This document shows positions 3,289 to 5,097 of a stretch of 62,438 nt of DNA, in pieces. How positions within the stretch are numbered: position 1 is the stretch's first letter; the number at the start of each line of letters is the position of its first letter. The translations under genes and the position numbers were made by a program. The notes beneath the pieces are model-generated. The model searched no databases. It had not been told where the DNA came from and saw only the letters and a list, made by a program, of their open reading frames with translations. Source of the stretch: a virus (taxonomy: Duplodnaviria > Caudoviricetes); the IMG/VR virus record IMGVR_UViG_3300023174_000004, positions 1 through 62,438 of that record, one strand, 5' to 3'.

Positions 3289-3315
3289 AAAAAAAGACCC
3301 CCACCGGGGGGGTCT
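3289..3315 (-). terminator. Putative intrinsic terminator on the minus strand upstream of the terminase genes
   Basis: AGACCCCC/GGGGGTCT stem followed by a T run on the minus strand. Confidence 0.5.
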
Positions 3316-3463
3316 AAAGGAGGAGAAGGAGCAACTGCTCGGAGTGGAGTTTAGCATGGAAAAAAGTGTGGTGGTTTGTGTGGATTATGGGGTGTGGGGG
3401 CGGAGGAGTCCCTTCTGCTGTATTGGGGGGTGGCCGGGCGGTGGGGTCGCGCCCCCTGCAAAC

Positions 3464-3492
3464 TGGACATATCGCCCCCCCTTTGGTATATT
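3464..3492 (+). promoter_or_regulatory. Sigma70-like early promoter P1
   Basis: TGGACA-17bp-TATATT, then hairpin CACTGC-AACATC-GCAGTG (3498-3515) and RBS AACTGGAGATCA. Confidence 0.65.
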
Positions 3493-3532
3493 TAAACCAC
3501 TGCAACATCGCAGTGCTTAACTGGAGATCAAC

Positions 3533-3754
3533 ATGAACCAAGAGTTACAACACCTCGCAATCCAGATGTACACGCCACTCTTTGGAGAGCGTGACACTGT
3601 GAAAGAAGCATATGACTATGCAATGGCTATTGCCAAAGCAAGCGACAACCCTGCCGCAGTTACCACGGCAATCCATGTCCTGATGAACACCATCAGCAAG
3701 GACATTGAACTGTGGAACAGCGCACCACGCAAGGTTAGGAAAGAGAACAACTGA
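3533..3754 (+). CDS. Small early hypothetical protein (73 aa); its stop codon lies in hammerhead 1
   Basis: Strong GGAG RBS; TGA is part of CTGATGA. Confidence 0.8.
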   Translation: MNQELQHLAIQMYTPLFGERDTVKEAYDYAMAIAKASDNPAAVTTAIHVLMNTISKDIELWNSAPRKVRKENN

Positions 3755-3796
3755 TGAGACCTTAATGGTCGAAACCGCAGGGATGCGGTCTTGTTC
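3745..3796 (+). ncRNA. Type I hammerhead ribozyme, copy 1 (predicted cleavage after C3790)
   Basis: Stem I GAACAA/TTGTTC; core CTGATGA; stem II GACC-TTAAT-GGTC; GAAA; stem III CCGCA-GGGA-TGCGG; GUC cleavage triplet. Confidence 0.93.
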
Positions 3797-3814
3797 AACA
3801 AACTGGAGATCAAC

Positions 3815-4000
3815 ATGAAACCATGGAATGAAATGACTGCCATCGAGCAGAAACGTGCAGAGTACAGCGACTTGCACAAGGACACATTCGGACATCGCCC
3901 ATCAATGCAGGACTTTGAAAGAGTGGCTAAGTTAACTGATGATGAGTACATGAAAGAGTACACATACTTGGCTGAGTTGATGAGTAGACAGGACAACTGA
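3815..4000 (+). CDS. Small early hypothetical protein (61 aa) flanked by two hammerheads
   Basis: RBS AACTGGAGATCAAC before ATG 3815; YSDLHKDTFGHRP motif; TGA inside hammerhead 2. Confidence 0.8.
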   Translation: MKPWNEMTAIEQKRAEYSDLHKDTFGHRPSMQDFERVAKLTDDEYMKEYTYLAELMSRQDN

Positions 4001-4042
4001 TGAGACCTTAATGGTCGAAACCGCAGGGATGCGGTCTTGTTC
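3991..4042 (+). ncRNA. Type I hammerhead ribozyme, copy 2 (predicted cleavage after C4036)
   Basis: Core, stem II and stem III identical to copy 1; stem I GGACAA/TTGTTC, where a G-U wobble preserves pairing. Confidence 0.93.
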
Positions 4043-4060
4043 AACAAACTGGAGATTAGT

Positions 4061-4249
4061 ATGCAGGTATATATCGACCTTCGTAAAGTTTTTGTAGAAG
4101 CTATGAAACACATGGAAGACGAAAGCGATGTACGCTGGACTATCGGTATGGCGCTTCAAGAGCTATACGGAAACGAGTGGATGTACAGCCTTCAACAAAG
4201 CATGGTTGAAGAATTTGAAGCAACGCAAGCCTTACAGAAGGACAACTAA
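4061..4249 (+). CDS. Small early hypothetical protein (62 aa)
   Basis: RBS ACTGGAGA before ATG 4061; followed by a terminator. Confidence 0.75.
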   Translation: MQVYIDLRKVFVEAMKHMEDESDVRWTIGMALQELYGNEWMYSLQQSMVEEFEATQALQKDN

Positions 4250-4260
4250 ATGTAATTTAA

Positions 4261-4283
4261 GGGAGCTTCGGCTCCCTTTTTTT
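4261..4283 (+). terminator. Intrinsic terminator
   Basis: GGGAGC-TTCG-GCTCCC followed by T7. Confidence 0.9.
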
Positions 4284-4294
4284 ACGCCTATACC

Positions 4295-4338
4295 TTTTGA
4301 TGCCAGTCATTTGTTCCCGCGAGAGCGTAGGGCGCGAG
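4295..4338. repeat. Conserved post-terminator box, copy 1
   Basis: TTTTGATGCCAGTnATTTGTyCCCGCGAGwGyGTA..GCGCGAG; also at 4984-5030 and 5816-5862. Confidence 0.85.
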
Positions 4339-4369
4339 TGCCGAGATCGTGCATCAGACCCCTGTAAAC

Positions 4370-4398
4370 TGGACATAAGCGCCCATTTCACCTACAGT
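4370..4398 (+). promoter_or_regulatory. Sigma70-like early promoter P2
   Basis: TGGACA-17bp-TACAGT, followed by a long 5' hairpin at 4405-4446. Confidence 0.6.
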
Positions 4399-4472: not shown

Positions 4473-4928
4473 ATGAAAACACGCAAACTAAACCCCTTTA
4501 TTAGTGCACTCAACAGCGCATTGGACGACCGTCAAAAGTCAGTCAATGAGATGCGGAATAACATTAACGAGGTCAAATCCAAGAAATTGGAATTGAGAGT
4601 TAAGTATGGACGTTTGTTCACAGACTTGCCCGGCAGTTTTAGCATCAGTCTTTCCTGCGAAAAGCCGGTAGCTTATGTCAGCATGAGACGCCTTGAATCT
4701 TTTAAAGACGCAAGGTTGACCGATTTTTTGGATAAGCTAGTTGCGATGGAAGGTGAAATGTCTTCCACAGATTACGCGAGCATCATGAATCGCTCATTCA
4801 CCTGTAATTTTTCAGATTTTCAGGTTTATGTTGATGCCTATGTGAAAGACGACAGCCCAACCTGCCGTAAGGTGGTGATTGGTACGAAAATAGAGGAAGT
4901 GTTAGAGTACGAGATAGTCTGCGACTGA
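4473..4928 (+). CDS. Early hypothetical protein (151 aa)
   Basis: TTGGAGATCAC RBS before ATG 4473; has its own promoter and terminator. Confidence 0.8.
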   Translation: MKTRKLNPFISALNSALDDRQKSVNEMRNNINEVKSKKLELRVKYGRLFTDLPGSFSISLSCEKPVAYVSMRRLESFKDARLTDFLDKLVAMEGEMSSTDYASIMNRSFTCNFSDFQVYVDAYVKDDSPTCRKVVIGTKIEEVLEYEIVCD

Positions 4929-4941
4929 GACTGATCTTGCT

Positions 4942-4975
4942 AAGACCCTGGGCCTTGTGCTCAGGGTCTTTTTTT
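4942..4975 (+). terminator. Intrinsic terminator
   Basis: AAGACCCTGGGC/GCTCAGGGTCTT stem followed by a T run. Confidence 0.85.
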
Positions 4976-4983
4976 GTCCCTGC

Positions 4984-5030
4984 TTTTTGATGCCAGTTAT
5001 TTGTTCCCGCGAGAGTGTACCGAGCGCGAG
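4984..5030. repeat. Conserved post-terminator box, copy 2
   Basis: Near-identical to 4295-4338. Confidence 0.85.
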
Positions 5031-5068: not shown

Positions 5069-5097
5069 TTGACTTTCCCCTATGGATAGATTACATT
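5069..5097 (+). promoter_or_regulatory. Sigma70-like early promoter P3
   Basis: TTGACT-17bp-TACATT, followed by a hairpin at 5104-5146; CTCAG-N6-CTGAG site immediately upstream (5050-5065). Confidence 0.7.

What the first reader, a model, noticed from the sequence alone, without database searches (positions are those of the whole stretch)
3745..4042. Tandem hammerhead ribozymes punctuate the first early operon and double as stop codons
Seen: two copies of GAACAA/GGACAA-CTGATGA-GACC-TTAAT-GGTC-GAAA-CCGCA-GGGA-TGCGG-TC-TTGTTC. The upstream gene's stop (TGA, followed by a second TGA) lies inside the CUGAUGA core, and the next gene's RBS (ACTGGAGA) starts about 12 nt after each cut site. The one stem I difference (A to G) keeps pairing through G-U. 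Established: this matches the hammerhead consensus (CUGANGA, GAAA, NUH) in type I topology, and cleavage yields 5'-OH and 2',3'-cyclic phosphate ends. Inference: the phage uses self-cleaving RNA, rather than host RNase III as in the T7 early region, to split a three-gene early transcript into monocistronic mRNAs. The 5'-OH ends would be poor substrates for 5'-monophosphate-dependent RNase E decay. A ribosome terminating on the catalytic core could also couple cleavage to translation.
Basis: partly seen in the sequence, partly recalled or inferred. Interest (0 to 1): 0.92.

Follow-up and report, generated by a model that had tools for sequence, protein, structure and literature searches.

The report
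Two hammerhead ribozymes between phage genes
Two almost identical self-cutting RNA motifs (type I hammerhead ribozymes) sit between three small genes of a phage, most likely cutting one transcript into single-gene messages; they look genuine, but clustered hammerheads around phage genes were already described in 2011.

Summary
Window 3745-3796 and 3991-4042 (+) are two 52-nt copies of a canonical type I hammerhead: 6-bp stem I, CUGAUGA, 4-bp stem II, GAAA, 6-bp stem III, GUC then the cut. They differ only at A3746/G3992. Relatives support a selected structure: 11 of 80 loci fetched with the terminase carry one copy at the same place. These show compensatory changes in all three stems, and the only core change is at the free position N7. 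A wider scan found 202 matches in 115 of 118 viral contigs, with same-strand arrays among the 80 loci tallied, 99.4% pairing over the first 133 matches and strong covariation. Rfam's curated thresholds miss all of them. The stop codon inside the core is real here but not conserved: 7 of 13 in this lineage, 31 of 129 in the class. The position just before a ribosome-binding site is common (98 of 128). Cleavage itself is untested. Clustered hammerheads flanking single prophage genes, and the transcript-processing idea, were published in 2011 (PMC3088659). Verdict: real, a new member of a known kind. New here: a conserved flanking A on each side, indel and homology breakpoints that fall at the ribozymes, and one cultured phage carrying a copy.

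The parts
3464..3492 (+). sigma-70-like promoter candidate of the three-gene unit (TGGACA, 17 nt, TATATT, with TG before the -10)
   Evidence: 10 of 12 consensus positions. The motif CTGGACATA plus a -10-like hexamer recurs at 4369-4398. A consensus match only.
3533..3754 (+). gene 1 (P0001, 73 aa, no known family). Its last two codons form the 5' strand of stem I and its stop is U4-G5-A6 of the ribozyme core.
   Evidence: No Pfam hit. 93-94% identical homologues in L003 and L004 (L110 is the same contig as L003) are followed 90 nt later by the hammerhead.
3744..3797 (+). hammerhead 1, type I: A3744, stem I 3745-3750 with 3791-3796, core 3751-3757, stem II 3758-3761 with 3767-3770, GAA 3771-3773, stem III 3774-3779 with 3784-3789, C17 = 3790, A3797. 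Predicted cut between 3790 and 3791.
   Evidence: (82.6 bits with model R1). Flanking A's.
3802..3817 (+). ribosome-binding region ACTGGAGATCAACATG of gene 2. After the cut the leader would be 24 nt (3791-3814).
   Evidence: The same 19-nt block stands before all three genes (3519, 3801, 4047).
3815..4000 (+). gene 2 (P0002, 61 aa, orphan), flanked by both ribozymes. Together with one ribozyme it forms the 246-nt unit that is absent from L004.
3990..4043 (+). hammerhead 2, type I, same anatomy as hammerhead 1. G3992-U4041 wobble. C17 = 4036. Predicted cut between 4036 and 4037.
   Evidence: (80.9 bits).
4061..4249 (+). gene 3 (P0003, 62 aa, orphan). Ends GGACAAC-TAA, i.e. the stem I 5' strand without a ribozyme behind it.
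4259..4285 (+). intrinsic-terminator-like hairpin plus T run that closes the unit
   Evidence: 8 pairs, 5 of them G-C, loop of 4, TTTTTAC tail. Homology with L003 resumes at 4278.

Best explanation
Both elements are functional type I hammerhead ribozymes, transcribed as part of one short transcript running from the promoter-like site at about 3464-3492 to the terminator-like hairpin at 4259-4285.

Each folds once its 3' stem I strand has been made and cuts after C17 (3790, 4036). This would give three single-gene RNAs.

- Type I topology leaves the whole ribozyme, together with the upstream gene's stop codon, on the 5' product. That product ends in two hairpins and a 2',3'-cyclic phosphate.
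- The 3' product starts with a 5'-OH and a short unstructured 24-nt leader carrying a standard GGAG site.
- The effect would be to uncouple the stability and translation of each small accessory gene from its neighbours, much as the synthetic insulator RiboJ does.

Shown here: the sequence, the fold, conservation with covariation, and placement between a stop codon and a ribosome-binding site. Inferred: transcription as one unit, cleavage itself, the chemistry of the ends, and the effect on expression.
For: Canonical core and topology
- Established.

Conservation in the window's own lineage
- One copy stands at the same place, 1144-1675 nt upstream of the terminase gene, in 11 of the 80 loci fetched with the terminase.
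- The model scores separate cleanly: 13 matches at 77.9-82.7 bits, and the next best at 13.4 bits.
- A sequence-only pattern found the same 11 loci.
- In that alignment 8 of 16 pairs change on both sides and 100% of cells pair. None of 500 shuffles reached these values, and slid controls pair at 23-45%.
- The only core difference is U to C at N7, the position the consensus leaves free.

Conservation in the wider class
- 133 matches in 80 viral loci pair at 99.4%, against 65.4% when shuffled and 32-40% when slid. 606 cells change on both sides against 149 in shuffles.

Placement
- All 13 copies of the lineage have a GGAG-like site and an ATG 13-20 nt after stem I.
- In the class, 98 of 128 have a Shine-Dalgarno-like word, a start codon and an ORF of at least 30 codons within 45 nt.
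- The longest upstream frame stops before the cut site in 113 of the 122 cases that have a frame of at least 40 codons.

Arrays
- 30 of 77 loci hold 2-6 copies, always on one strand, with a median spacing of 604 nt.

Ribozyme in place of terminator plus promoter
- In L058 the ribozyme precedes a homologue (29% identity, E 1e-12) of window gene 4473-4928. In the window that gene follows a terminator-like site and has its own promoter-like site.

Precedent
- Tandem prophage hammerheads cleaved in vitro, and one set also in E. coli (PMC3088659, section 6 read).
Against: - No cleavage or RNA-end evidence exists for this element.
- The only RNA-library data were assembled contigs. One 258-nt contig from a relative with the L004 arrangement bridges the second cut site in RNA library X1. 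So an uncut template, either RNA or contaminating DNA, exists there.
- The element is dispensable. Of 44 relatives with at least 2000 nt upstream of the terminase gene, 36 lack it. Rfam found no other ribozyme in 9 such loci.
- The ribosome-binding site is 12 nt from the ribozyme and looks accessible even without cleavage, so a gain in translation is not evident.
- No Rfam hammerhead family reaches its threshold.
- The promoter and terminator are consensus matches only.
- The rows of alignment A1 came from a scan that required paired stems.
Confidence: 0.6

Rival explanations
1. The ribozyme plus ribosome-binding-site module is kept mainly as a standard junction at which phages exchange small gene cassettes by homologous recombination. 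This would resemble the promoter-terminator cassettes (PeSLs) of T4-type phages. RNA cleavage would be secondary. This reading can coexist with the best explanation.
For: - Window versus L004 (identical terminase protein, flanks 92-96% identical): the only large difference after gene 1 is the 246-nt unit of gene 2 plus one ribozyme, bounded by the two ribozyme copies.
- L003 has a different gene between the ribozyme and the terminator.
- L098 is otherwise barely alignable, yet it holds a gene 2 with 100% protein identity between two ribozymes. Homology to the window covers 3744-4056. Read by eye from the two printed sequences, the near-identical stretch runs only from the gene 2 start codon to the CTGATGAG of the second ribozyme, and the leader after the first ribozyme differs.
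- L008 versus L006: the ribozyme lies inside a replaced segment of about 490 nt.
- The genes downstream of the ribozyme differ among the 13 copies of the lineage.
- PeSL precedent: PMC2839356 (abstract read).
Against: - Recombination needs only DNA identity. It does not explain compensatory changes that keep all three stems paired, or the invariant catalytic core.
- Breakpoints at any repeat are expected without selection for that role.
- Only four comparisons were made.
Confidence: 0.15
2. Cleavage is coupled to translation. A ribosome terminating on the UGA inside the core unfolds stem I and the core, so the cut rate reports how heavily the upstream gene is translated.
For: - In the window both upstream genes end on the core UGA and their last two codons form the stem I 5' strand.
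- Stops lie inside or within 3 nt of the ribozyme in most class members. Offsets relative to the first C of the core: -9, 15 cases; -8, 16; -3, 18; +1, 31; +11 to +14, 16; out of 122.
Against: - The overlap is not conserved: 7 of 13 in the lineage and 31 of 129 in the class end on the core UGA.
- In L011, L053 and L067 a TAA stands before stem I.
- CUGAUGA, the frequent UAA at the end of stem I and the U-N-A loop put stops in all three frames. Any frame that runs in must therefore end there, so tight packing explains the overlap.
Confidence: 0.1
3. The two cuts release the 246-nt segment 3791-4036, and a host RtcB-type ligase closes it into a small circular mRNA for gene 2, as in retrozymes.
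For: - There are two same-strand ribozymes 246 nt apart.
- The cut ends would be the substrates of RtcB (established chemistry).
- PMC3088659 names circular products as a possibility.
Against: - That paper looked for circular or spliced products and found none.
- 11 of 11 relatives with the element in this lineage have one copy, not two.
- The ORF has a stop, and spacing in the close homologue L098 is 247 nt.
- Spacings in arrays range from 53 to 7018 nt.
Confidence: 0.04
4. The elements are inactive hammerhead look-alikes: structured repeats that serve as a protein or RNase site or as a 3' stabiliser, without self-cleavage.
For: - Scores are below threshold against every Rfam hammerhead family.
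- There is no obvious long stem I or pseudoknot. The highest mutual information between a loop II position and a flanking position is 0.24 bits.
- PMC3088659 reports some inactive candidates.
Against: - Every core position needed for catalysis is kept across about 200 copies while the stems vary freely.
- The conserved loop II (U-N-A-N-U) and the flanking A's fit a tertiary contact.
Confidence: 0.06

Closest known systems
Clustered hammerhead ribozymes flanking single genes in prophages (Perreault et al. 2011, PMC3088659)
   Same: - Several same-strand hammerheads lie close together around individual small genes of changing identity in phage DNA.
- The proposed role is processing of long phage transcripts into single-gene mRNAs.
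- Tandem sets were shown to cut in vitro, and one set also in E. coli (passages and section 6 read).
   Different: - That paper stresses type II ribozymes and pseudoknot contacts. This element is a compact type I with a fixed 6-bp stem I, conserved unpaired A's on both sides and a U-N-A-N-U loop II.
- I could not check whether this exact subclass is in its Dataset S1, because supplements are closed.
- Here the element sits in a complete 62.4-kb phage genome with terminal repeats, not a prophage.
Rfam RF03152 RAGATH-1-hammerhead and RF02275 Hammerhead_HH9
   Same: The alignments cover the whole core, a short stem I, stem II beginning GAC, and GAAAC then GUC.
   Different: - Scores are 21.5-23.5 bits against a cut-off of 56.3, and 22.3 bits against 52.
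- The 5' hairpin of RAGATH-1 and the outer stem I extension of HH9 are not matched.
- No Rfam family reached its gathering score anywhere in 8 loci where model R1 found 41 copies.
Synthetic ribozyme insulator RiboJ
   Same: A hammerhead placed just upstream of a ribosome-binding site, so that the mRNA gets a fixed short 5' leader whatever lies upstream. PMC6206723 was seen as a search listing and abstract start only. The design details are recalled.
   Different: - RiboJ is engineered from a plant satellite ribozyme and adds a hairpin after the cut.
- The phage element is natural, type I, leaves 6 nt of stem I plus an A-rich spacer, and overlaps the upstream gene.
PeSL promoter-terminator cassettes of T4-type phages (Arbiol et al. 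2010, PMC2839356)
   Same: Short repeated regulatory modules that flank non-essential orphan genes. Insertions, deletions and replacements between close relatives begin and end at them (abstract read; compare).
   Different: - PeSLs act at transcription (promoter plus terminator). Here the module is a self-cleaving RNA plus a ribosome-binding site.
- Mini-circles were not examined.
Type I hammerheads in intergenic regions of RNA mycoviruses (PMC13725137)
   Same: A type I ribozyme with a long helix III fills a short intergenic region and cuts a few nucleotides before the next start codon (passages read).
   Different: Those are RNA viruses of eukaryotes, where the ribozyme is proposed to help cap-independent initiation. 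Here the context is a DNA phage with Shine-Dalgarno initiation.
RNase III processing of the T7 early transcript
   Same: One early transcript is cut between cistrons into separate mRNAs.
   Different: - That cut is made by a host protein enzyme at hairpins and leaves 5'-phosphate and 3'-OH ends.
- Here the RNA would cut itself, leaving 5'-OH and a 2',3'-cyclic phosphate.

Membership tests
Hammerhead ribozyme (any type) | Three helices meeting at a junction, kept by compensatory change | tested here: met
   - The minimum-energy fold is the three-way junction.
- Lineage alignment: 16 pairs, 100% paired, 8 pairs changed on both sides.
- Class alignment: 99.4% paired, 14 of 16 pairs changed on both sides, 606 cells.
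Hammerhead ribozyme (any type) | Core C3 U4 G5 A6 N7 G8 A9 and G12 A13 A14 | tested here: met
   - CTGATGA and GAAA are present in both copies.
- Both are invariant in 12 of 12 lineage rows except N7, which is C in L054.
- In the class N7 is U 71, C 39, A 9, G 2. In that set the other core letters were fixed by the search pattern.
Hammerhead ribozyme (any type) | A15.1-U16.1 pair and a non-G residue (H17) before the cut | tested here: met
   - A3774-T3789 with C3790; A4020-T4035 with C4036.
- The A-U pair is kept in 11 of 11 distinct rows and 123 of 123.
Hammerhead ribozyme (any type) | Tertiary contact between stem I and stem II or loop II, needed for fast cleavage at cellular Mg2+ | tested here: inconclusive
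   - No covarying pseudoknot was found. The highest mutual information between a loop II position and a flank position is 0.24 bits.
- Conserved features fit a docking contact: loop II U1 in 120 of 121, A3 in 114, U5 in 100; A before stem I in 121 of 121; A after it in 115 of 121. These flanking positions were not fixed by the search pattern.
Hammerhead ribozyme (any type) | Site-specific self-cleavage giving 2',3'-cyclic phosphate and 5'-OH ends | not testable with these tools
   Only assembled contigs of RNA libraries were available, and they cannot show RNA ends.
Type I topology | Stem I open, stems II and III closed by loops | tested here: met
   Stem I joins 3745-3750 to 3791-3796. The loops are TTAAT and GGGA.
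Rfam hammerhead families (RF00163, RF00008, RF02275, RF02276, RF02277, RF03152; the first, second, fourth and fifth accession numbers are recalled) | Score at or above the family's gathering threshold | tested here: not met
   - No matches at gathering score in the window or in 8 array loci.
- Best sub-threshold scores are 23.5 bits against 56.3 and 22.3 bits against 52.
- This speaks to Rfam's models, not to ribozyme identity.
Clustered phage hammerheads (Perreault 2011) | Two or more same-strand hammerheads flanking single genes or short gene blocks in phage DNA, with varying gene identities | tested here: met
   - The window has 2 copies around gene 2.
- Arrays of 2-6 copies occur in 30 of 77 viral loci, always on one strand.
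- Flanked genes differ.
PeSL-like shuffling cassettes | Indel and replacement breakpoints between close relatives coincide with the repeated module | tested here: met
   Four comparisons only, with no background rate.
PeSL-like shuffling cassettes | The module is a promoter plus a terminator stem-loop | tested here: not met
   The module is a ribozyme plus a ribosome-binding site. The promoter-like and terminator-like sites lie elsewhere in the unit.

The most novel reading that the evidence does not exclude
The compact type I hammerhead plus ribosome-binding site is a standard 'connector' used by many aquatic phages.

- At the RNA level it insulates each small accessory gene as its own message.
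- At the DNA level its conserved roughly 50-80 nt provide the homology at which single-gene cassettes are swapped between unrelated phages.
- This would be a ribozyme-bounded, integron-like cassette system.

The window (gene 2 with a ribozyme on each side), L004 (no cassette), L003 (a different cassette) and L098 (the same gene 2 in a foreign genome, with near-identity breaking off at the two ribozymes) would be snapshots of this exchange.
Probability: 0.3. Interest if true: 0.6.

Novelty: new member of a known kind. Interest (0 to 1): 0.4.

Why it matters
- The biological role of hammerheads encoded in phage and bacterial DNA is still described as open (review PMC6765202, passages read).
- This locus is a clean small case. 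It is a complete phage genome with one promoter-like site, three orphan genes, one terminator-like site, and ribozymes as the only punctuation.
- Close relatives exist with none, with one, and with a different gene behind the ribozyme.
- Rfam's thresholds do not detect it, so these elements go unannotated. In one cultured phage record a minus-strand 'hypothetical protein' is called across the ribozyme.
- That phage, Flavobacterium phage vB_FspP_elemoA_7-9A, gives a tractable system for testing what the cut does.

Tried and rejected
- **Rfam at gathering score.** It found nothing in the window, in 9 relatives without the ribozyme or in 8 array loci. So no alternative known ribozyme replaces the hammerhead where it is absent, as far as Rfam can see.
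- **First viral scan with fixed stems.** The pattern from the window's own copy found nothing. It was too specific, so I replaced it with a core-only pattern.
- **DNA search of cultured phages.** The 1.1-kb region gave no match.
- **Expression evidence.**
  - Only small shares of the stretch were found, all as assembled contigs of relatives, and no starts or ends could be read.
  - Parts without cover, including the first ribozyme, say nothing.
  - The habitat labels of these runs are not used as evidence.
- **Pseudoknot search.** I looked for covariation between loop II and 20 nt upstream or 25 nt downstream and found none.
- **Identity of the flanked genes.**
  - There was no Pfam hit, and only one weak PHROG hit for P0002 (E 0.0011).
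  - P0002 has 4 database relatives. None carries a functional name: two are labelled 'hypothetical protein' by a source and two have no label.
  - P0003 has no usable Atlas look-alike.
  - Anti-defence or host-takeover roles therefore remain a guess.
- **A phage RNA polymerase.** None was seen among 20 larger proteins scanned. The 2240-aa protein has no PHROG match, so this does not exclude one.
- **Closest cultured relatives by terminase.** These are DSL-LC04, 023Pt_psg01 and Pelagibacter phages HTVC027P and HTVC023P, at 48-53% identity. None has a match to the model.
- **Genome collection scan.** Only 5 of 80 listed loci held true copies, all on contigs of metagenome-assembled genomes. The rest are chance matches to the 16-letter pattern, so I draw no host from these labels.
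- **Column-identity lines.** They were thrown off by a 1-nt indel and are not used. The BLAST rows and the two printed sequences are used instead.
- **The single extra hit of my stem scan** (L065, stems of 4, 4 and 4 pairs). The model did not confirm it, and I treat it as chance.
- **Limits of my counts.**
  - picks the longest upstream frame by a simple rule and has no random-position control.
  - One search dropped rows that did not fit fixed stem lengths, lay within 20-25 nt of a contig end or were duplicates (142 identifiers reduced to 121).
  - One search dropped duplicates and rows without a core in the first 16 nt (135 reduced to 129).
- **Papers.** Supplements were closed, so I could not check whether Dataset S1 of PMC3088659 already lists this subclass. 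A stop codon inside the core or a stop-to-RBS placement in phages was not found in print, nor in PMC3088659, where 'stop codon' occurs 0 times. These searches cover the held library only.
Full report
**What is there**

The window is a complete 62,438-bp virus record with direct terminal repeats. It encodes a large terminase on the minus strand at 1124-2638. On the plus strand it has a family A DNA polymerase, a DUF927 primase-helicase and a helicase. Structural genes lie on the minus strand beyond 26.7 kb.

The plus-strand block opens with a short unit:
- a sigma-70-like promoter candidate at 3464-3492
- three small genes: 3533-3754 (73 aa), 3815-4000 (61 aa) and 4061-4249 (62 aa)
- a terminator-like hairpin with a T run at 4259-4285.

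A 52-nt element stands between genes 1 and 2 (3745-3796) and between genes 2 and 3 (3991-4042). It reads stem I (6 bp), CUGAUGA, stem II (4 bp, 5-nt loop), GAAA, stem III (6 bp including A15.1-U16.1, GGGA loop), C17, then the return strand of stem I. The copies differ at one base (A3746 versus G3992), which keeps pairing as G-U. The repeat extends through the ribosome-binding region.

**More than chance**

- The core pattern occurs twice in the window. The mean was 0.05 in 100 shuffles.
- Each element folds into the hammerhead junction as its minimum-energy structure, alone and within 111 nt of context. Only the isolated elements have clearly low z-scores.
- No Rfam family reaches its threshold.
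- The nearest families, RAGATH-1-hammerhead and Hammerhead_HH9, align the full core at 21.5-23.5 bits against cut-offs of 52-56.

**Relatives of this phage**

A terminase search of IMG/VR gave at least 599 related stretches, of which 80 were kept.
- A sequence-only pattern, my stem-requiring scan and a covariance model built from the copies agree. Eleven relatives carry one copy each, on the same strand as in the window, 1144-1675 nt from the terminase start.
- Model scores are 77.9-82.7 bits for these 13 copies and 13.4 bits for the next best hit.
- Stem II reads GACC/GGUC, GGCU/AGCC, GGGU/ACCC or GUCU/AGAC. Stem III reads CCGCA/UGCGG, CCGCC/GGCGG or CUGCA/UGCAG. Stem I reads GAACAA, GAGUAA, GAGUGA or GAACAU with matching partners.
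- 8 of 16 pairs change on both sides, all cells pair, and no shuffle reaches this.
- The one core change, U to C in L054, is at N7.
- Caveat: the rows were found by a scan that asked for pairing. The sequence-only pattern found no additional unpaired copies.
- The element is patchy. Of 44 relatives with at least 2000 nt upstream of the terminase gene, 8 have it.

**A widespread compact subclass**

- The model confirmed 133 copies in 77 of the 80 listed loci and 69 more in all 38 remaining loci.
- The same pattern in bacterial and archaeal genomes was confirmed in only 5 of 80 loci, all contigs of metagenome-assembled genomes. This serves as a control for chance matches.
- Over 124 distinct rows, 99.4% of cells pair, against 65.4% when shuffled and 32-40% when slid. 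606 cells show double changes against 149.
- Features the pattern did not impose:
  - an A directly before stem I in 121 of 121
  - an A directly after it in 115 of 121
  - loop II reading U-N-A-N-U.
  I read these as a likely docking contact; this is inference.
- Thirty of 77 loci hold 2-6 copies, always on one strand, at a median spacing of 604 nt. L168 has 7 copies and L271 has 8.
- Rfam's thresholds detect none of the 41 copies in eight such loci.

**Placement**

- In all 13 copies of the lineage a GGAG-like site and an ATG follow 13-20 nt after stem I.
- In the class, 98 of 128 have a Shine-Dalgarno word, a start codon and an ORF of at least 30 codons within 45 nt.
- The longest upstream frame (at least 40 codons, 122 cases) ends, relative to the first C of the core, as follows:
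  - on the core UGA: 31
  - on the last three bases of the stem I strand: 18
  - at -8: 16
  - at -9: 15
  - at -10 to -19: 17
  - in stem II or loop II: 16
  - beyond the cut site: 9.
- So the rule is tight packing, with the stop kept on the 5' product. It is not use of the core as the stop.
- In this lineage 7 of 13 upstream genes end on the core UGA. L011, L053 and L067 have a TAA directly before stem I.

**How it most likely works**

Type I topology puts the whole catalytic fold and the upstream stop codon on the 5' fragment. Only six stem I bases go onto the 3' fragment.
- The 3' fragment would start with a 5'-OH, a short A-rich leader and the ribosome-binding site.
- The 5' fragment would end in two hairpins and a cyclic phosphate.
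- I infer that the cuts turn one transcript into three independent messages with standard leaders.
- One observation fits the ribozyme as an alternative to starting a new transcript. In L058 it precedes a homologue of window gene 4473-4928, which in the window follows a terminator-like site and has its own promoter-like site.
- Nothing here shows cleavage. The RNA-library material available was assembled contigs from relatives, and one of them bridges the second cut site.

**Cassette boundaries**

- Compared with L004 (identical terminase protein), the window has an extra 246 nt, made of gene 2 plus one ribozyme and bounded by the two ribozyme copies.
- L003 has a different gene between the ribozyme and the terminator. 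Both L003 and L004 also carry an extra 90 nt at the end of gene 1, directly before the ribozyme.
- L098 aligns with this region of the window almost nowhere else. Yet it carries gene 2 at 100% protein identity between two ribozymes. The 93% alignment spans 3744-4056. Within it, by eye from the printed sequences, near-identity runs only from the gene 2 start codon to the CTGATGAG of the second ribozyme.
- In L008 versus L006 the ribozyme lies inside a replaced segment.
- This resembles PeSL-mediated shuffling in T4-type phages (PMC2839356, abstract). It is my most novel reading. The evidence is four comparisons with no background rate.

**Comparison with what is known**

- Perreault et al. 2011 (PMC3088659; passages and section 6 read) report that multiple hammerheads often flank individual genes of varying identity in prophages. 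They propose processing of long phage transcripts, showed cleavage of tandem sets in vitro and of one set in E. coli, and looked in vain for circular or spliced products.
- A 2019 review still calls the role open (PMC6765202).
- Type I ribozymes that fill short intergenic regions just before a start codon are described in RNA mycoviruses (PMC13725137).
- The kind is therefore known. This is a well-supported new member, in a subclass that Rfam does not capture.
- I could not check the 2011 supplement for this subclass.

**A tractable relative**

- Nine records of Flavobacterium phages of the vB_FspP_elemo group matched part of the element.
- In MT497017.1 the model confirms one copy at 47.9 bits (E 5.6e-13). 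It lies between two small plus-strand genes, with an A before stem I and AA after it. A minus-strand 'hypothetical protein' is annotated across it.
- The window's closest cultured relatives by terminase (48-53% identity) have no copy.

**Verdict**

- The ribozyme identity is strongly supported by structure and covariation.
- The processing role is plausible, already published as a hypothesis, and untested here.
- The stop-codon and translation-coupling idea is not supported as a conserved feature.
- Interest is moderate.

Noticed in passing
window 4279-4340 and 4969-5030, with promoter-like sites 4370-4398 and 5069-5097: After each of two terminator-like hairpins comes a conserved block of about 45 nt (TTTTGATGCCAGTYATTTGTTCCCGCGAGAG...), followed by a promoter-like site. 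The block recurs several times in L003 and L004. It looks like a repeated terminator-promoter cassette, reminiscent of PeSLs.
   Followed up: partly
window 3498-3515: A 6-bp hairpin (CACTGC-AACATC-GCAGTG) starts about where the promoter-like site 3464-3492 would begin transcription. It could be a 5' stabilising stem-loop for the first gene, which is the only one of the three without a ribozyme in front of it.
   Followed up: no
window 4240-4249: Gene 3 ends GGACAAC-TAA. These are the same seven bases as the stem I strand plus C3 of hammerhead 2, but no ribozyme follows. It may be a remnant of a former junction.
   Followed up: no
window 3340-3460: A markedly G-rich tract lies on the plus strand, with runs of GGGG, between the minus-strand terminator-like site (3295-3315) and the plus-strand promoter candidate.
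   Followed up: no
L271:535-4571 (+), L168:6226-11139 (-): These are the densest arrays seen. L271 has eight model matches in a 5.8-kb contig of a metagenome-assembled genome, and L168 has seven in about 5 kb of a viral contig. All are on one strand.
   Followed up: partly
L321:2962-3069 (MT497017.1 17275-17382): The record of the cultured Flavobacterium phage annotates a minus-strand 35-aa 'hypothetical protein' (elemo79Aphanotate_43) exactly across the plus-strand hammerhead. This is probably a false gene call.
   Followed up: partly
L003 and L004 versus window 3738-3744: Gene 1 of L003 and L004 carries about 90 extra nt (about 30 residues) at its 3' end, directly before the ribozyme. The upstream side of the ribozyme is therefore also an indel boundary.
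   Followed up: partly
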